Below are positions 3,172 to 35,229 of a DNA stretch of 64,000 bases, in pieces (positions within the stretch are counted from its first letter, which is position 1; each line of letters starts with the position of its first letter). The notes under the pieces are model-generated. The model was not told the origin of the DNA. It was given only the letters and a program-made list of their open reading frames with translations, and searched no databases. Location: assembly GCA_046581755.1 (NCBI GenBank), contig JAYGFR010000103.1, positions 16,869-80,868 on the forward strand, in the 5' to 3' direction. Source of the stretch: Nitrospinota bacterium. Lineage in GTDB: Bacteria; UBA8248. Position numbers and translations under genes: made by a program.

Positions 3172-3172
<1 letters not shown>
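2696..3172 (-). CDS. DUF3465-family secreted protein
   Basis: The sequence starts MPRNFLKTLPSEFAAALLAVALLGLG, which looks like a signal peptide. It continues HQRFILRLTDGQTLLISHNIGLAPRV...YEWNPRGGVVHWTHRDP. The ORF-track start lies further upstream; MPRNF is taken as the start and overlaps the carB stop codon. Confidence 0.6.
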
Positions 3173-6423
<3,251 letters not shown>

Positions 6424-6480: not shown

Positions 6481-7233
6481 TCATTCCAGGATGATTCCAG
6501 CGCGTGCGGCGCCGGCCCCCGGGCTGATGACCTCGGCCAGCACCGCCACCGACGCGTAAACGGCCAGCGCCTTGCCGATGAAGAGCCGCCGCGCCACCGG
6601 GCCGAAATGGCGGCTGTCCAAGACGTCCTCGCGGTTGTCGCCCATCATGAAATAGGCCCCCCGCCCCAGCGCGATCGGGCCGAAATCCTCGGTCCTGCCC
6701 CGCCCCCGGAATTTTCCGGGAAGCGGCAGGCCGTTCACGAAAATCCTCCCGCCCCGGGCCTCGATCCGCTCGCCGGGAAGGCCCACCACCCGCTCGATAT
6801 ACGTCGCCCGTTCGGCGCCCGGCCTCCGGAAGACGGCGATCTCGCCCCGCGCGATCCCGAGATGGCGGTAGCGCTCCCGGTCCACGATGATGTGATCGCC
6901 CTCCTCGAGCCGGGGCTCCATCGAAGCCGTCGCGATGCGCAGGATGCGCCCGGCGAAGATGCCGCTGTCCTCCCGGCCCGCCTCCTCCCATCGCGCGTTC
7001 GCCTCCTTCCGCTCCCCTCCCATGTAGAGGGCCAGCCCGAGCCGGTAGAGGGAGTCCGCCCGGTAGGGCGGCAGGGCCCCGAGCATCTCCCGGTAGAAGC
7101 GCGCCGCCTCCCGGTAGCGCCCCGCCAGGAAAAGCGACTGCCCCCGCCCCAGATCCCCGGCCGGTGCGCCCGATGCCGTGAGCGAGAGCGCCAGCGAAAC
7201 GGCGGCCACGGTTCGGGGGATTCCGGACGGCAT
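6481..7233 (-). CDS. signal peptidase I (S26)-like protein with N-terminal signal peptide and TPR segment
   Basis: Start is taken at MPSGIPRTVAAVSLALSLTASGAPAG, which looks like a signal peptide. A TPR-like stretch (RYREAARFYREMLG...LYRLGLALYMGG) follows. SPase I boxes SMEPRL and YFMMGDNREDVLDSRHFGPV are present. Box D reads TYIERVVGLPGE, that is, Glu where the general-base Lys is expected. Confidence 0.7.
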   Translation of the reverse strand: MPSGIPRTVAAVSLALSLTASGAPAGDLGRGQSLFLAGRYREAARFYREMLGALPPYRADSLYRLGLALYMGGERKEANARWEEAGREDSGIFAGRILRIATASMEPRLEEGDHIIVDRERYRHLGIARGEIAVFRRPGAERATYIERVVGLPGERIEARGGRIFVNGLPLPGKFRGRGRTEDFGPIALGRGAYFMMGDNREDVLDSRHFGPVARRLFIGKALAVYASVAVLAEVISPGAGAARAGIILE

Positions 7234-7259
7234 GATCGCCACCGGGTTTCTCTCCACCC

Positions 7260-8483
7260 TCAGCCCGCCACCAACCCTTCGGCCAGGGCGAATTCCTTCC
7301 GGGCGATATGCCGCCGGAGCGAGAAAAGAATCGCCAGATTGATCAACCCGGCCAGCGCCGCGTTCGCGAACGAAACCGTGTAGTCGCCCGTCCAGTCGAA
7401 AAAGAGACCGGCCTGATAGCCGCCCAGCCCCATGCCCACCCACGCGCAGAAAAAGACAAACCCCGTCGAAACGCCCCTCCTTTGCATCGGGACAAATTCC
7501 CGCACGCAGATCACCAGGCAGATCATCACGCCGCTGTATAGGAGCCCGTAAAGAAAGGCGAGGACATAGAAGCCGCCCAGCGAGGCGACCTGGGTGAACC
7601 AGAACACCAAGACGCTCTGGGCCATGGAGGCCAGGATGTAGGTGCGGAGGCCGCCGATATGATCGGCGATTCTTCCGTAGACGATCCGCCCGAGAAAACT
7701 GCCCACCGAGAGCAGGAGGAGAATCCCCGCCGCCTCTTGCGGCCCGATCCCCCGGTCCAGGGCCAGCGGCACCACGTGGATCAGCGGGGTGGCCATGCAC
7801 AAGCAGCAAAATATCGCCGCCGCCCCCAGCCAGGCGGTCGTGACCCAGGGCGCAACCGGATAGGACTCCCCGGGAGCCGAGGGCGCATCCTGACCGGAGG
7901 AAGAGGGGGCACCTTCGCGGGAGGGCGCCTTCCGGACCAGCAGGGCCAGCGGGACCAGCACCGCCAGCGCGAAGATTCCGAGCCACGCGTAGGCCCCGCG
8001 CCAGCCGAAATTGGATATCAGATAGCCCGCGGCGAAGGGGACCACCCCGTTTCCAAGCCCCCCCCAGGCCGAAGCGATCCCCAGCGCCAGCCCCTTGTTG
8101 GGGCCGAACCAGTTTCCCACGCTGGCCATCAGCGGCGCCTGAAACGAGGAAATCCCCAGGCCCGCCAGGGCATAGAAAAGATAGAACTGCCAGAGAGCGC
8201 CCTGGCGCGAGAGAAGAAAGTAGGAAACCCCCAGAAGCGCCGCCCCGGCCAGCACCACCGGGCGCGCCGAATAGCGGTCCGAGAGATGGCCCGCCAGGAT
8301 GCCGCCGCCCCCGAGGACGAGCGCCGCGCCCATGTAGGCGAACGAGGTCTCCCCCCGGAGCCAGCCCATGCCGGCCGAGAGCGGCTTCATGAACACCGCC
8401 AGCGAGGACATCGAGCCCACCGCCATCGCCATGAACGTCCCCGCTACCGCCACCATCACCCAGCCGTAGCGGGGTTCCGTCAT
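7260..8483 (-). CDS. MFS transporter
   Basis: The 12-TM-type sequence starts MTEPRYGWVMVAVAGTFMAMAVGSMSSLAVFMKPLSAGMGW. The ORF-track start at 8537 adds 18 codons that overlap the DUF559 remnant. Confidence 0.8.
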   Translation of the reverse strand: MTEPRYGWVMVAVAGTFMAMAVGSMSSLAVFMKPLSAGMGWLRGETSFAYMGAALVLGGGGILAGHLSDRYSARPVVLAGAALLGVSYFLLSRQGALWQFYLFYALAGLGISSFQAPLMASVGNWFGPNKGLALGIASAWGGLGNGVVPFAAGYLISNFGWRGAYAWLGIFALAVLVPLALLVRKAPSREGAPSSSGQDAPSAPGESYPVAPWVTTAWLGAAAIFCCLCMATPLIHVVPLALDRGIGPQEAAGILLLLSVGSFLGRIVYGRIADHIGGLRTYILASMAQSVLVFWFTQVASLGGFYVLAFLYGLLYSGVMICLVICVREFVPMQRRGVSTGFVFFCAWVGMGLGGYQAGLFFDWTGDYTVSFANAALAGLINLAILFSLRRHIARKEFALAEGLVAG

Positions 8484-8518
8484 CTCCGCGGTCGATTGAT
8501 TCAAGATATCACCCGGTA

Positions 8519-8880
8519 ATTCAAACCTTCTCTCCATCTTCGAGCGCGCCGTCTCCGAGCGCCGCCCGGATGGACTCCACCACGCCCTCGATATTTTTCA
8601 TCAAATCCCCGTTCCAGAAGCGCACCACCCTAATCCCTCTCCCGCCAGCGCGCGGCTTCGCTCCGCGTCGTATTCGGCCTGATCGCTCCCGGCGTGCCCG
8701 CCTCCGTCAAGCTCCACCGCCAGCCGCGCCTCGTGGCAATAAAAATCCAGGATGAACGGCCACGCCGGATGCTGACGGCAGAATTTCACGCCCAGCCCGC
8801 TGTCCCGGAGGACTCGCCACAGCTTCCGCTCCGCCTCGGTGGACTCTTTGCGAAGCTCCCGGGCCGGGCCTTCCTCTTTT
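8519..8880 (-). pseudogene. DUF559 endonuclease-domain gene remnant (frameshifted, no start codon)
   Basis: Two frames together read ...ESTEAERKLWRVLRDSGLGVKFCRQHPAWPFILDFYCHEARLAVELDGGGHAGSDQAEYDAERSRALAGEG / IRVVRFWNGDLMKNIEGVVESIRAALGDGALEDGEKV. A one-nucleotide frame change lies at about 8620-8630, and no start codon precedes the conserved N-terminal region. Confidence 0.6.
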
Positions 8881-8926
8881 CATCCAAGGGCGGTTTCGCC
8901 ATGGTTGATCCACCTTCCCTACTTAT

Positions 8927-9120
8927 TCCCTCACCCCAACCCTCTCCCGGAGGGAGAGGGAGTTAAAAACCTCGTGTTCGATGCCTTACTTTCAATCTGG
9001 AATTAACCAATTCCTCAAAATCTGAATCCCGATCAATCTCCAATTGCACCTCAACGACATTCGCCCTAAAGCCTTTGCCCTTAGTCCCCTCTCCCTCCGG
9101 GAGAGGGTTAGAGTGAGGGA
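8927..9120. repeat. MITE-like pair of inverted ~35-bp palindromic repeats flanking ~120 bp
   Basis: Position 8927-8962 reads tccctcaccccaaccctctcccggagggagagggag. The reverse complement of 9086-9120 is tccctcactctaaccctctcccggagggagagggg. Each copy contains the internal palindrome ccctctccc-NNN-gggagaggg. Confidence 0.5.
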
Positions 9121-9129
9121 GATTTCGAT

Positions 9130-9336
9130 CTACCCCGCCAAAATCCGCTTCGTGCTCGGAAGCGACATCACCAGCGCCGCCGCCATCGTCCACCAGCCCG
9201 CCGCCGTCCAATCGCCCCCCGCGTAGCCCGCGATCAACAACCCGATCCCCACCCCGCCCAGAAACTTTGCGAAAACGTGCGCCATCAGAAGCGGCGCCGG
9301 CAGATTTCGGAATCTTTGTATCCATGAGGAGAGCAT
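9130..9336 (-). CDS. small hypothetical membrane protein
   Basis: This 68-aa ORF has a hydrophobic Gly/Ala/Trp-rich core (FLGGVGIGLLIAGYAGGDWTAAGWWTMAAALV). There is no family-level recognition. Confidence 0.3.
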   Translation of the reverse strand: MLSSWIQRFRNLPAPLLMAHVFAKFLGGVGIGLLIAGYAGGDWTAAGWWTMAAALVMSLPSTKRILAG

Positions 9337-9530
9337 TAAGGGTTTCCTTGGGGGCGGGTCTTTTTCGTTATTCCGAGCGCTAGCGAGAAATCTTCGAGGA
9401 GGAAAGTTTGCGGGACACCGCCCCAGAAGATTCTTCCCTCCGCTCCGCTGAGTTCAGAATGACGCAATAACTTCTACCGATTTTCCAAACTGAGATACAG
9501 CCAATTTCAATCGCCTATAATCACCATTTT

Positions 9531-9794
9531 TCAAACCAAACGACCGAGAATTTTTCGAACAGGCCTTACAAAAATCGCATTGTGCAATTTACTTATCCGC
9601 CTATTCGTAATGTCAAAATGGTGTCCCGTTCGAATATCTCTCCACATTCCAGAATAATTTGGAGTCAACACAACTTCATGGGTCAAAATATTAAAAAGAG
9701 AAAAATGAACCTTGATTTCATTTTGGGACCCTGACCATTCTGAAACTATTAAGTGCCCAGTTGTTTGCCTCATAATTTTGGAATCTTCTCTCAA
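9531..9794 (-). CDS. hypothetical small protein in the AT-rich islet (possible partner of the HNH protein)
   Basis: The 80-87 aa ORF lies immediately downstream of the HNH ORF in a different frame. It has low GC, and ATG or TTG starts are both possible. Confidence 0.35.
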   Translation of the reverse strand: MREDSKIMRQTTGHLIVSEWSGSQNEIKVHFSLFNILTHEVVLTPNYSGMWRDIRTGHHFDITNRRISKLHNAIFVRPVRKILGRLV

Positions 9795-9808
9795 GATGGG
9801 GTCTTGGC

Positions 9809-10519
9809 TTACCCTGAAAAATTTATAGTCCGGTGGGTTCCATAACGCACGAACCTTCGAATTGAATCAAAATTTTCACTGAGAACAAAATCCGAACCAG
9901 CAATTTTAGCAAGGTAGTTTAAGGCTATTTTTGAGACCGCCCTTTGAATTACACGATCAACGACGTATTCCCCTTCAATTTCTATTTGCCCTGAATTACT
10001 TGGTTGTGGAAATACTTCATTTTTCTCTTTAAAAGAAATCCCTTTGCGCCACAGAAGGCGAATTAGCCGTGGGACGTCCAAATCAGGAATTAATAGAATG
10101 CCTTTTTGAAGACTAATTCCATCAGGAAGGCTTCTCGCTTCATACAACTCAGGCTCTGCCATAAACTTCCATCCAACTTGTTGAGCTTTAGCAAATCCAA
10201 CTTGTGGTATTGGGGCATATGCCAATTTCCCTTCTTCGACTTTTACTCCCAACAACAATCCAATATATTCACAGTTATCTGCCAATCTCATGACTAACCT
10301 ATTGCCAATAAAGTCTGAGACCATTGATTTAACATCTTTCAACCCATATTCACTTCTTTGCAGTCCCTCAAAACTGTCCCTAGCCAAATAGGAGTCATGG
10401 TATTTTCCGAAAAATTCATTGCATTCATCACAAACACAATGAAGAATTAAATTGTCAGGCGCGAATCTACCAAACGACTGAGGAATTACATGCTCTCGTT
10501 TTGTGAATTCTCTCGACAC
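9809..10519 (-). CDS. HNH endonuclease-domain protein with a ~190-aa uncharacterised C-terminal region
   Basis: The N-terminus reads REHVIPQSFGRFAPDNLILHCVCDECNEFFGKYH, which fits the HNH pattern EH-x-IP...N-L...C-x2-CN. Local GC is about 35-40%, against about 68% in the flanks. Confidence 0.6.
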   Translation of the reverse strand: MSREFTKREHVIPQSFGRFAPDNLILHCVCDECNEFFGKYHDSYLARDSFEGLQRSEYGLKDVKSMVSDFIGNRLVMRLADNCEYIGLLLGVKVEEGKLAYAPIPQVGFAKAQQVGWKFMAEPELYEARSLPDGISLQKGILLIPDLDVPRLIRLLWRKGISFKEKNEVFPQPSNSGQIEIEGEYVVDRVIQRAVSKIALNYLAKIAGSDFVLSENFDSIRRFVRYGTHRTINFSG

Positions 10520-10563
10520 TTCCTTCTCTTCAAGACAATAAATTCACTTCCGCGTCTCCACCC

Positions 10564-11660
<1,097 letters not shown>

Positions 11661-11664
<4 letters not shown>

Positions 11665-33429: not shown

Positions 33430-34214
33430 ATGCAGCGGTTTCTCAATTTATTGTCCGGCCTCTCCGATATTATTCTCCCGCGCTCGTGCCCCACATGCGG
33501 CGGCGCGCTACCCTTCGGGGGCGGCAGAGCCATATGCGAAACTTGCCTGGAGGCGCTCGAGCGGACCTTGCCCCCCTGGTGCCCCGTATGCGGAAAACCG
33601 TTCCGCTCGGAATTCACCCTCTCCTATTCCCCGGACCACCTTTGCGCCGAGTGCCGCGAATGGCCGCCGGATTTCGATGGGGCCCGCGCCCTGGGCCCCT
33701 ACGATGGCGCCCTTCGTAATCTGGTTCATCTGATCAAATACCACGGCTACACCTCCCTTGCCGCCGAGCTGGGGGTAGAACTCAGCCAGCGGGCCCGGCA
33801 GGAATTTCCCGGTGCCGCTGATGCGGGAGACGGATTGATAACGTTCGTTCCCATCGCCCGGAAACCTGGAAAGAGCGCGGCTTCGATCAGGCCCGGCTTC
33901 TCGCCCAGAGCACCGCCGGGCGCCTGGGAGTGGCATTCGCGCCCACTCTCGAGAGGAGAGCCCCCTCGGCCCCCCAGACACGCCTGACGGCCAAGCGGAG
34001 GAGAAAAATCCTGCGCGGCGTTTTCTCCTCTCTCAACCCGCCCGCCTCGGAGGGGAAACGGGTCATTTTGATCGACGATGTTCTGACAACCGGCTCGACG
34101 GCCTCGGCCTGCGCCCGGGAACTCAAAATAGCGGGTGCATTATCCGTAAGTGTCTTGACCATTTGTCTTACTGTGATAAAAGGAATTCAGAATTTAATAT
34201 TTTATTTATGCTGA
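33430..34214 (+). pseudogene. comF: ComF-family (phosphoribosyltransferase-domain competence) gene with a single-nucleotide frameshift near 33870
   Basis: Frame 1 gives a zinc-ribbon N-terminus (ILPRSCPTCGG...WCPVCGKPF...CAEC) up to VPIARKPGK. Shifted by one base, the next frame continues ERGFDQARLLAQ...VILIDDVLTTGSTASACAREL. The joined sequence VPIARKPGKERGFDQ aligns 15/15 with the canonical VPLHPRRLRERGFNQ. Confidence 0.7.
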
Positions 34215-34470
34215 GAGTTATCTTAACTGCAAGAATTTAAAATGGTTAAGTCATGCAATGCAAATAGTTAAAAAAGGTAAATATATTTAAATAAAAAAAA
34301 TACTTGAAATAATTATGGGTAAAGCGTATTTTTGAATTTATAATTTAGGGAGATTTGAGGATCTCAGGGTTTATTTAACCCCAAACAGTCCGTAATATGG
34401 TGAAGCTAGGAAATGGAGCGAGTGGCCATAGGTTCTACTACTGGACTATGCGAAACGGAAGTGGAGAACG
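34215..34470. promoter_or_regulatory. AT-rich (~30% GC) 250-bp intergenic region with candidate promoters upstream of the cI-like regulator
   Basis: The composition contrasts sharply with the ~68% GC flanks. One candidate is TTGAAA-17nt-TATTTT. A second element, TTGAAT...TATAAT, has wrong -35/-10 spacing. Confidence 0.3.
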
Positions 34471-35229
34471 ATGAAATTACGCCTCGAAAAACCCAGAAGA
34501 GAAGCGATCGGAGCCCGGCTCAGGGAGATTCGGCTCTTCAATAAACTCGAGCAAACCGAGCTTGCCGATCGTGCGGGCCTTTCTCAGGCCATCATCAGCC
34601 AGTACGAAAAAGGTCTCACCGAAATCAGTCTCTCGTTCATCAAGTTCCTGGCCGATAACTTCAACATCTCGGGCGATTGGCTCATTTTCGGCACCGGCGA
34701 GTCGCCCCACGAGCAATCCCAAAAAGAAATCGAGCTCCGCCTCCCGAAAAGCCTCGGCGGCGCCTCCGTGAAAGGAAGAAAAAAGTCGGGATTTTTCGGC
34801 ATCCCCATCGTGGACCCCAAATCAGCCGCCAGGCCCGGCAAGGTCCAGAATGAGCAGATCCAGGATTGGGAAATCGTCCGGCTTCAAGAGGCCACGGGCC
34901 GCAACAACCTCGTCGCCCTGGAGGTGAGGGGTGACTGGGTGAAAAACATGGACGCCCCCTTCCGGGCGGGCGGACGCATCGTCATCGATCGCGATGATAA
35001 GAAAGTGCGCCACGACGCCTTTTACGCCGTGAACAAGGCCATCAAGAAAAAAGCCCCGCGCGACGCCAGCATCACCGGAATCCGCCGCCTCAGCATGAGC
35101 GGCTCCCGGCTCTGGTTCGTCGAGGATCGCCCCGGCAAGGAATTCGAATTCATGGACCTCAAGGCCAGCGACCGGATCGAAAACATCATCATCGGCCGGG
35201 TCATCTGGGTCTGGCAAAAGATGATCTAG
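34471..35229 (+). CDS. XRE-family HTH + LexA/cI-like (S24) C-terminal domain regulator, predicted non-cleaving
   Basis: The N-terminal HTH reads LEQTELADRAGLSQAIISQYEKG. The C-terminus has an S24-like fold, but GDW (ALEVRGDWVKNMD) stands where the catalytic GDSM is expected. Confidence 0.6.
   Translation: MKLRLEKPRREAIGARLREIRLFNKLEQTELADRAGLSQAIISQYEKGLTEISLSFIKFLADNFNISGDWLIFGTGESPHEQSQKEIELRLPKSLGGASVKGRKKSGFFGIPIVDPKSAARPGKVQNEQIQDWEIVRLQEATGRNNLVALEVRGDWVKNMDAPFRAGGRIVIDRDDKKVRHDAFYAVNKAIKKKAPRDASITGIRRLSMSGSRLWFVEDRPGKEFEFMDLKASDRIENIIIGRVIWVWQKMI

What the first reader, a model, noticed from the sequence alone, without database searches (positions are those of the whole stretch)
9337..10563. 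AT-rich islet inserted between carB and carA carrying an HNH-motif protein and a small partner ORF
GC drops from about 68% to about 35-40% over roughly 1 kb at 9480-10530. The islet is wedged between carA and the region near carB, which are normally adjacent.

The 236-aa ORF has a canonical HNH signature within its first 40 residues (EHVIPQSFGR...DNLILHCVCDECNEFFGK). It then carries about 190 aa that I cannot assign to any family. A small ORF of 80-87 aa follows in another frame.

Several other features sit next to this islet: the decayed DUF559 nuclease gene at 8519-8880, the MITE-like inverted repeats at 8927-9120, and a small membrane ORF at 9130-9336. Together they look like a hot spot for horizontally acquired or selfish elements.

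The architecture is compatible with a two-gene defence, toxin-immunity or homing module, none of which is a standard housekeeping function.
Basis: partly seen in the sequence, partly recalled or inferred. Interest (0 to 1): 0.6.

Follow-up and report, generated by a model that had tools for sequence, protein, structure and literature searches.

The report
Broken single HNH nuclease gene
The AT-rich patch after carA holds one damaged copy of a stand-alone HNH nuclease gene, not a two-gene module, and a sister species has an intact but very different copy of the same gene family at exactly the same spot.

Summary
The sequence features are real. GC falls to 0.37-0.41 over about 9450-10550, against about 0.68 in the flanks. 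ORF236 passes Pfam HNH_5 (33.5 bits, cut-off 27.5).

The "small partner ORF" is not a gene. It is the C-terminus of the same roughly 330-aa gene, cut off by a 1-nt deletion between 9835 and 9834. That deletion is seen only in this assembly; eight other assemblies of the locus lack it.

All nine alleles also carry TGA where relatives have the first zinc-binding Cys. Another strain has a different frameshift plus a stop codon, and a third has C33S. Overall dN/dS is about 1, against 0.08-0.36 for neighbouring genes. The copy is decaying.

A sister species (carA 81% identical) has carA, an intact 337-aa family member, orf68, DUF559 and carB at the same site. Its protein is only 39% identical to this one and is also AT-rich, which points to allele turnover at a conserved slot.

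The family is large: 845 clusters at E<=1e-30. It has no Pfam or PDB match beyond the HNH finger and no conserved partner gene. Members often sit in defence islands or mobile elements.

Best reading: a remnant of a stand-alone, probably defence-type nuclease. Interest is modest.

The parts
9531..10561 (-). Whole HNH_5-family gene remnant. It runs from the in-frame GTG that aligns with the first ATG of the sister-species gene down to the TGA stop at 9533-9531. It is interrupted by a TGA at 10546-10544 and by a 1-nt deletion at 9835/9834.
   Evidence: Three-frame translations. P0001 (329 aa) equals ORF236 plus ORF87 joined. Alignment with L179.
10544..10546 (-). In-frame TGA at the position of the first zinc-ligand Cys of the CxxC pair. 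Relatives read M(K/Q)KCIYC; the window reads RK*IYC.
   Evidence: Identical in all nine alleles of this species. L179 has TGT at this position.
9809..10519 (-). ORF236, about 70% of the gene. It contains the beta-beta-alpha HNH finger (EHVIPQSFG...CVCDECNEFFG) and the first part of the uncharacterised C-terminal region. NCBI annotates it as the 244-aa 'HNH endonuclease' MFP6868747.1, starting from an ATT at 10543.
   Evidence: Pfam HNH_5 33.5 bits. AF2 model: strands 7-10 and 25-29, helix 31-47..
9834..9835 (-). Site of the 1-nt deletion. A T is present in eight other assemblies. Its loss shifts the frame and creates the apparent second ORF.
   Evidence: Multiple DNA alignment.
9531..9834 (-). 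C-terminal part of the same gene in the shifted frame (PPDYKFFRVSQDPILREDSKIM...GHHFD...).
   Evidence: Family-conserved motifs GH.I, SLFN and GHHFD lie here.
9429..9463 (-). 35-nt block just downstream of the gene. It is conserved (32/35) after the very different allele of the sister species, is single copy, and is where contig L002 diverges (at 9443). It may be the 3' edge of the exchangeable segment. Its role is unknown.
   Evidence: No stable fold (z +1.14).
10564..11664 (-). carA, the conserved upstream flank. It lies on the same strand, 2 nt upstream of the in-frame GTG, with no terminator-like site in between.
9130..9336 (-). orf68, a small hydrophobic protein. It is 75% identical in the sister species and has host-like composition. 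It is not found next to other family members, so it is not a partner gene.
8554..8902 (-). DUF559 pseudogene, split over three frames. It is intact (118 aa) in the sister species.

Best explanation
The islet holds one gene, not two. It is a member of a large, uncharacterised family of stand-alone proteins of about 330 aa. Each has an N-terminal four-Cys HNH (His-Me finger) nuclease motif and a conserved C-terminal region of about 280 aa with no known relatives.

In this Nitrospinota species the copy is crippled and decaying. The first zinc Cys codon is TGA in every allele seen. This assembly has a further 1-nt frameshift. Other strains have a different frameshift plus a stop, or a Cys-to-Ser change at an invariant zinc ligand.

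The position directly after carA is a conserved slot. A sister species carries an intact but only 39%-identical, equally AT-rich allele there. The slot's content has therefore been exchanged by horizontal transfer or recombination rather than simply inherited.

Inferred, not shown: intact family members act as single-protein DNA nucleases of the defence or restriction kind. In that reading the HNH finger cuts and the C-terminal region supplies target recognition or control. The window's copy no longer does this.
For: One gene:
- All homologues are single proteins of 310-360 aa that cover both ORFs.
- P0001 is ORF236 plus ORF87 joined.
- The window alone lacks a T at 9835/9834.

Damage:
- TGA aligns with the Cys of CIYC.
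- L092 has a 1-nt deletion plus Q138stop, with 5 synonymous and 15 non-synonymous changes.
- L093 has C33S.
- Across alleles there are 7 synonymous, 24 non-synonymous, 1 stop and 2 frameshift changes. dN/dS is about 1, against 0.08-0.36 for pyrC, carA and carB.

Conserved slot with allele exchange:
- L179 reads carA, a 337-aa HNH_5 gene, orf68, DUF559, carB.
- The flanks are 80% identical in DNA, but the HNH proteins are only 39% identical.
- GC3 is 0.32 and 0.40 for the two alleles, against 0.86-0.89 for host genes.
- The two alleles are never sisters in 200 NJ bootstraps.
- The L179 allele is 48-55% identical to proteins from elsewhere, including one from a Planctomycetota MAG.

Family:
- 845 cluster representatives at E<=1e-30.
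- A confident AF2 model (pLDDT 82) with a beta-beta-alpha finger.
- No PDB or viral fold match.

Context:
- Neighbours include TIR, a large metallophosphatase, DUF5677, PIN-MazE and patatin.
- Others include GmrSD plus a type I R-M system, and the accessory region of a Mu-like prophage.
- One member sits on a conjugative element next to DUF4238.
- No recurrent partner appears among 148 neighbours of 55 loci. Those neighbours include GajA/OLD-type ATPases, McrBC, type I methylases, a T4SS protein, a resolvase and RepB.
Against: - Among the six most similar alleles, 6 of 7 substitutions are synonymous. With a synonymous-site fraction of 0.215, that is roughly P = 0.001-0.004, which hints that the 329-aa ORF was recently, or still is, under constraint.
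- Seven of nine alleles keep the 329-aa ORF open.
- The frameshift in this assembly could be a consensus error, which I cannot check.
- The defence role is guilt by association only. There is no PADLOC hit for this protein, only weak PtuB hits for four relatives, and no background rate for the neighbourhood counts.
- One member sits between ordinary housekeeping genes.
- Allele exchange rests on two species only.
- The window allele sits on a long branch, so fast divergence in place is not excluded.
Confidence: 0.6

Rival explanations
1. A free-standing homing endonuclease gene in the decay phase of the homing cycle. The HNH enzyme once cut a site near the conserved end of carA in genomes that lacked it and was copied in by repair. 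Once fixed in the species it lost selection and is now degenerating. Different family members invaded the same site in the sister species.
For: - A compact, promoter-less, AT-rich gene lies directly behind a highly conserved gene on the same strand.
- It is present in all nine alleles yet decaying.
- A different allele occupies the same site in the sister species.
- From general knowledge, T-even phages show different free-standing HNH homing genes at the same intergenic sites. Mob endonucleases are listed in the HNH group in PMC5714182.
Against: - No empty site was found.
- There are no known homing-endonuclease DNA-binding modules and no other Pfam hit.
- The family is absent from 50,697 phage records and from IMG/VR with these queries.
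- There is no intron or intein context.
- Other members lie in defence islands and mobile-element cargo regions at unrelated sites.
- None of 80 carA loci from other phyla carries one.
Confidence: 0.12
2. The gene is still functional in most strains. It is translated from the GTG at 10519 or the ATT at 10543 without the first CxxC, or from the GTG at 10561 with the UGA recoded (for example as selenocysteine in place of Cys). The frameshift in this window would then be an assembly error or a very recent private loss.
For: - 6 synonymous against 1 non-synonymous change among six near-identical alleles.
- The 329-aa ORF is open in 7 of 9 alleles.
- TGA aligned with Cys in homologues is the classic Sec/Cys pattern.
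- An in-frame GTG at 10561 aligns with the first ATG of the L179 gene.
Against: - The region after the UGA folds no better than shuffled sequence (z 0.10).
- No tRNA-Sec is found, and indeed no tRNA at all, in the window.
- To my knowledge no zinc-finger Sec ligand is known.
- Independent disabling lesions occur in three lineages, including invariant C33 and Q106.
- dN/dS is about 1 overall.
- Losing two of four zinc ligands should destabilise the finger (inference).
Confidence: 0.12
3. Plain vertical inheritance. One ancestral gene at this site diverged in place, very fast, to 39% identity in the two species, and its AT-richness was kept by selection. No exchange occurred.
For: - The same position, the same orientation and an alignable 5' end (ATG CAG AAG TGT against ACG CGG AAG TGA).
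- A conserved 3' block.
- Both alleles fall in the same broad subfamily.
- The window allele is a long, poorly placed branch: its nearest distances of 1.11-1.16 include the L179 allele.
Against: - The L179 allele has clearly closer relatives (Kimura distance 0.87-0.89 against 1.16; 48-55% identity against 39%), at least one in another phylum.
- GC3 of 0.32 and 0.40 has not moved towards the host's 0.87, although the flanks have diverged by 20% in DNA.
- The neighbouring orf68 and DUF559 are 75-76% identical.
Confidence: 0.14
4. One reading: a two-gene defence, toxin-immunity or homing module made of a 236-aa HNH protein and an 80-87-aa partner.
For: Two consecutive ORFs on one strand in different frames.
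Against: - ORF87 is co-linear with residues of about 240-329 of every homologue.
- The split is a 1-nt deletion private to this assembly.
- ORF87 matches no family.
- No conserved small neighbour exists in other loci.
Confidence: 0.02

Closest known systems
Pfam HNH_5 (PF14279) / His-Me finger endonucleases (groups 1 and 8 of Jablonska et al. 2017, PMC5714182)
   Same: The N-terminal 50 residues match the HNH_5 profile above its threshold. The predicted fold is beta-beta-alpha. The EH...CxxCN motif is present. Intact relatives have the CxxC...CxxC zinc site.
   Different: The window's copy lacks the first CxxC (TGA). About 280 aa of conserved C-terminal sequence are outside any Pfam or NCBIfam model and any solved fold. 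Only PHROG 35254, of unknown function, shares it.
Septu PtuB (an HNH nuclease that works with the PtuA ATPase)
   Same: The HNH_5 model is used to annotate the HNH nucleases of ATPase-nuclease defence systems. A few relatives give weak PtuB hits (E 0.002-0.07).
   Different: No adjacent ATPase here or in most relatives. The only AAA_15-type neighbours are divergent or two genes away. The window protein gives no PADLOC hit. From memory, this family is larger than PtuB.
HNH-type restriction endonucleases such as McrA (type IV)
   Same: A single polypeptide joining an HNH finger to a larger non-catalytic region. Members occur beside GmrSD, type I R-M, McrBC and an EVE-domain nuclease. McrA is listed in the same His-Me group.
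   Different: The domain order is reversed (HNH first; from memory, in McrA it is last). No sequence or fold similarity outside the finger. No adjacent methyltransferase. Dependence on DNA modification is untested.
Free-standing HNH homing endonuclease genes of T-even phages (MobA-E)
   Same: A compact AT-rich nuclease gene wedged between conserved genes. Different alleles occupy one site in related genomes. The copy decays after fixation.
   Different: Chromosomal rather than phage-borne. No known DNA-binding modules. No empty site was observed. Not found in phage collections.

Membership tests
HNH_5 / His-Me finger nucleases | Profile match above the curated threshold | tested here: met
   PF14279 E 3.9e-8, 33.5 bits against a 27.5 cut-off. 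17 of 19 relatives match.
HNH_5 / His-Me finger nucleases | Beta-beta-alpha core with the catalytic His and the Asn of the motif | tested here: met
   AF2 model: strands 7-10 and 25-29, helix 31-47. EH(10) and CN(34) are present, and N34 is invariant in the family.
HNH_5 / His-Me finger nucleases | Complete four-Cys zinc site (CxxC...CxxC) | tested here: not met
   The first Cys codon is TGA in all nine alleles, and the ORF restarts after the first pair. Relatives have CIYC.
HNH_5 / His-Me finger nucleases | Nuclease activity | not testable with these tools
   Needs an enzyme assay.
Two-gene toxin-immunity / toxin-antitoxin / defence pair | A second, separately encoded and conserved partner protein | tested here: not met
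   ORF87 is the C-terminus of the same protein. There is no recurrent neighbour in 55 loci.
Septu (PtuA-PtuB) | An adjacent AAA_15/21 ATPase on the same strand, and a PtuB profile match | tested here: not met
   The neighbours are carA and orf68. No PADLOC hit. Relatives give only weak PtuB hits. The rare ATPase neighbours are not in an operon arrangement.
Free-standing homing endonuclease gene | Presence/absence polymorphism with a cleavable empty site | tested here: inconclusive
   All nine alleles and the sister species are occupied. No closer empty-site genome was available: the best carA match among GTDB representatives is 57%.
Free-standing homing endonuclease gene | A phage, intron or intein setting, or known homing DNA-binding modules | tested here: not met
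   No other Pfam domain. No hit in phage records or IMG/VR.
Type II restriction-modification | An adjacent cognate DNA methyltransferase | tested here: not met
   None lies between carA and carB.
Selenoprotein | In-frame UGA aligned with Cys in homologues | tested here: met
   TGA against TGT in L179 and Cys in all relatives.
Selenoprotein | A SECIS hairpin just downstream, and Sec machinery in the genome | tested here: inconclusive
   The fold is no better than shuffles (z 0.10). No tRNA is found in the window. The rest of the genome was not available.
Integron gene cassette | An attC site (paired RYYYAAC / GTTRRRY cores in a stable hairpin) after the ORF | tested here: not met
   The 3' region has an imperfect palindrome, but by eye it lacks the core sites, and its fold has z +1.14.

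The most novel reading that the evidence does not exclude
The roughly 330-aa 'HNH finger plus unknown 280-aa region' proteins could be a new single-gene anti-phage or anti-plasmid nuclease family whose C-terminal region has a fold not yet seen in solved structures. In that case the slot behind carA in this Nitrospinota clade would be a fixed docking place where very different AT-rich alleles of the family replace one another.
Probability: 0.3. Interest if true: 0.55.

Novelty: new member of a known kind. Interest (0 to 1): 0.27.

Why it matters
For this window the result is mostly corrective. An apparent two-gene module is one broken gene that NCBI already labels 'HNH endonuclease'.

The wider value lies in the family. 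It has hundreds of diverse members, a confident predicted structure without solved relatives, no partner gene, and frequent defence-island or mobile-element neighbours. That makes it a reasonable candidate for experimental defence screens.

The carA slot, with two 39%-identical AT-rich alleles in sister species (one intact, one decaying), is a small natural example of gain, replacement and loss of such genes in a little-studied phylum.

Tried and rejected
- **PADLOC, NCBIfam and PHROGs on both ORFs and orf68:** nothing useful beyond PHROG 35254, of unknown function.
- **Profile against PDB sequences:** nothing.
- **tblastn of two family members against phage and plasmid records:** no match. 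The IMG/VR scan found nothing.
- **Selenocysteine reading of the TGA:** no SECIS-like stability.
- **Integron attC reading of the 3' palindrome:** rejected.
- **Target-site duplications or terminal inverted repeats around the islet:** none beyond chance-level short repeats.
- **Promoter and terminator scan:** at or below shuffle expectation.
- **Rfam:** only a far-below-threshold hairpin hit on the inverted-repeat element. No tRNAs.
- **Truncation of the gene by the insertion event:** I first thought the insertion had cut off the 5' end. I rejected this once the sister-species 5' end aligned codon for codon.
- **orf68 as a partner:** rejected. It has host-like composition, is 75% conserved, and is absent next to other members.
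- **Septu-like pairing with AAA_15 ATPases:** rejected on arrangement.
- **Technical failures:** the first metagenome scan with the broad alignment failed for lack of a conserved stretch, and the first tree script timed out.
Full report
**What is there.**
- The GC drop is real and sharp. 200-nt windows read 0.37-0.41 GC from about 9500 to 10550, against 0.66-0.74 on both sides. It is the strongest compositional outlier in the 64-kb window.
- On the minus strand the gene order is pyrB, pyrC, carA (10564-11664), ORF236 (9809-10519), ORF87 (9531-9794), a 68-aa hydrophobic ORF (9130-9336), a 34-nt inverted-repeat pair (8927-8960 / 9087-9120), a DUF559 remnant, an MFS transporter, an S26 signal peptidase and carB (3172-6423).
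- ORF236 passes Pfam HNH_5 (33.5 bits against a 27.5 cut-off). However, only profile positions 14-53 of 56 are matched, so the first CxxC of the finger is missing.
- PADLOC, NCBIfam and PHROGs add nothing for ORF87 or orf68.

**One gene, not two.**
- Every homologue found is a single protein of about 310-360 aa.
- The closest, P0001 (329 aa, 100% identical), is ORF236 joined to ORF87. The window reads ...FVRYGTHRTINFSG*, where P0001 reads ...FVRYGTLPDYKFFRVSQDPILREDSKIMRQ... The second frame of the window continues exactly with PPDYKFFRVSQDPILREDSKIM....
- Aligning the window with eight other assemblies of the same locus (97.8-99.7% identical) shows that the window alone lacks one T between 9835 and 9834.
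- ORF87 is therefore the C-terminus of the same gene.
- The window's truncated product is identical to NCBI MFP6868747.1, 'MAG: HNH endonuclease [Nitrospinota bacterium]'. This identifies the host phylum.

**The 5' end.**
- In frame upstream of the GTG at 10519 the window reads V E T R K * I Y C L E E K E, where relatives read M-(K/Q)-K-C-I-Y-C.
- I first took this for truncation by the insertion. The sister-species sequence instead aligns codon for codon: ATG GAA ATG CAG AAG TGT ATT TAC TGT against GTG GAG ACG CGG AAG TGA ATT TAT TGT.
- The lesion therefore arose in place: the Cys codon became a stop, and the proximal ATG became ACG.
- All nine alleles of this species share it.
- A selenocysteine reading is formally possible, because TGA is aligned to Cys. 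It has no support: the downstream RNA folds no better than shuffles (z 0.10).

**Decay in the population.**
- L092 (97.8% identical) has a different 1-nt deletion and Q138stop. It has 5 synonymous and 15 non-synonymous changes, several at family-invariant positions (V29, Q106, F217).
- L093 has C33S at an invariant zinc ligand.
- Over seven alleles I count 7 synonymous, 24 non-synonymous, 1 stop and 2 frameshift changes. dN/dS is about 1, against 0.08-0.36 for pyrC, carA, MFS and carB on the same contigs.
- There is a counter-signal. Among the six most similar alleles, 6 of 7 substitutions are synonymous (synonymous-site fraction 0.215). Constraint may therefore have been lost only recently, or only in some lineages. 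L093 also comes from an assembly with visible errors elsewhere.

**Not a private insertion.**
- GTDB species representatives hold no close relative; the best carA match is 57%.
- The protein database does hold carA relatives at 72-87% identity.
- One of them, on a 173-kb contig (L179; carA 81%, carB 82%, flanks 80% identical in DNA), has the order carA, an intact 337-aa HNH_5 gene (MQKCIYCLKEK...EHVIPEA...), orf68 (75% identical), the same inverted-repeat pair, an intact 118-aa DUF559, and carB. The MFS and S26 genes are absent.
- The two HNH proteins are only 39% identical. blastn homology stops at window 10528 and resumes at a 35-nt block (9429-9463, 32/35 identical) just after the gene.
- Both alleles are far from host composition: GC3 0.32 and 0.40 against 0.86-0.89.
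- The L179 allele has clearly closer relatives elsewhere (46-55% identity), including a Planctomycetota MAG protein at 48%.
- The two alleles are never sisters in 200 NJ bootstraps.
- I read this as a conserved slot whose content has been replaced, not simple vertical descent. The window allele sits on a long branch, so fast divergence in place is not excluded.
- Contig L002 leaves the window's sequence at 9443, inside the conserved 35-nt block, and continues into an unrelated luciferase-like monooxygenase ORF. This hints that the block is a recombination edge, or that the contig is chimeric.

**The family.**
- A profile search of 1.84 billion representatives finds 845 clusters at E<=1e-30 and 2,221 at E<=1e-10, nearly all full-length single-domain-architecture proteins.
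- Conserved features are CIYC...EHVIPQSFG...CxxCN.FFG..LE..LAR at the N-terminus. Further along come R..AKIAFNYLA, FD..R.FIR, GH.I, SLFN and GHHFD.
- The AF2 model is confident (pLDDT 81.9, pTM 0.81) and shows the beta-beta-alpha finger.
- Only PHROG 35254, of unknown function, shares the C-terminal region (15 of 19 members).
- In six annotated neighbourhoods I saw the following:
  - TIR, a 1124-aa metallophosphatase, DUF5677/DUF6988, PIN-MazE and patatin.
  - DUF4238 on a conjugative element.
  - GmrSD and a type I R-M system.
  - The accessory region of a Mu-like prophage beside an EVE-NmeDI_C protein and Dam.
  - Pfam-less giant ORFs.
  - Plain housekeeping genes.
- Among 148 non-redundant neighbours (two on each side) of 55 metagenome loci, nothing recurs beyond near-identical loci.
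- The commonest families among those neighbours are GajA/OLD-type ATPases (3), NOV_C (3), type I methylases (2), DUF5677 (2) and M78 plus HTH (2). Single cases include McrBC, a T4SS coupling protein, a resolvase and a RepB primase.
- The ATPase neighbours are not arranged like Septu.
- The family is thus stand-alone and tends to travel with defence and mobile-element cargo. I have no background rate for these counts.

**How it most likely works.**
- Shown: it is a single HNH_5-family gene. It is damaged here. The slot is shared, but the alleles are very different.
- Inferred: intact members are single-protein DNA nucleases. The four-Cys His-Me finger cuts, and the large conserved C-terminal region supplies target recognition, regulation or oligomerisation, as in stand-alone restriction- or abortive-infection-type defence proteins.
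- In the window the gene lies 2 nt after carA on the same strand, with no terminator-like site between them. It is therefore probably co-transcribed. With the first zinc pair gone and, in this strain, the last 95 residues out of frame, an active enzyme is unlikely.

**Rivals.**
- A free-standing homing endonuclease in the decay phase fits the local picture. It does not fit the family's absence from phage collections or its scattered defence-island contexts.
- A still-functional truncated or recoded protein is kept alive by the 6:1 synonymous excess.
- Pure vertical descent with very fast divergence is weakened by composition and by the closer relatives elsewhere.
- The two-gene module is refuted.

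**Verdict.** The object is a decaying member of a known superfamily, already labelled 'HNH endonuclease' by NCBI. It belongs to an uncharacterised subfamily that would merit testing as a defence gene. Interest is modest.

Noticed in passing
window 8554-8902 (minus strand): The DUF559 gene is split over three reading frames here but is an intact 118-aa ORF in the sister species L179 (12835-13191). Both nuclease-type genes of the carA-carB interval (HNH and DUF559) are therefore broken in this species and intact in the other.
   Followed up: partly
window 8927-8960 and 9087-9120; L179 12551-12583 and 12715-12747: A 34-nt inverted-repeat pair (94% complementary, 126 nt apart) is conserved at the same position in the sister species. 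The window holds only these two copies. It gives a far-below-threshold Rfam 'MIR7533' hit (36.9 against 230 bits) that is just hairpin resemblance.
   Followed up: partly
window 6481-8537 (minus strand): The MFS transporter and the TPR/S26 signal-peptidase genes lie between DUF559 and carB in this species. They are absent in L179, where DUF559 is followed directly by carB. Their composition is host-like (GC3 0.84).
   Followed up: no
window 9429-9463; L002 1500-1703: Contig L002 (ENA ERZ27300295) is identical to the window through carA and the HNH gene. It diverges at 9443, in the middle of a 35-nt block conserved between species, and continues into the start of a luciferase-like monooxygenase ORF not present in the window. 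This is either a structural variant or a chimeric contig.
   Followed up: partly
window 34100-34450: A second, short AT-rich patch (GC 0.26-0.40). It is intergenic and lies just upstream of a 252-aa HTH/S24-like regulator ORF (34471-35229).
   Followed up: no
window 10559-10561: An in-frame GTG 2 nt after the carA stop aligns with the first ATG of the sister-species HNH gene. The only 5' lesion may therefore be TGT to TGA, the textbook Sec/Cys alignment pattern, although nothing else supports recoding.
   Followed up: partly
whole window / carA 10564-11664: The host lineage is poorly sampled. The best carA match among 185,579 GTDB species representatives is 55-57% identical, while metagenome proteins reach 72-87%. 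Most contigs carrying HNH family members are only 1-3 kb long, as expected if these AT-rich variable regions break assemblies.
   Followed up: no
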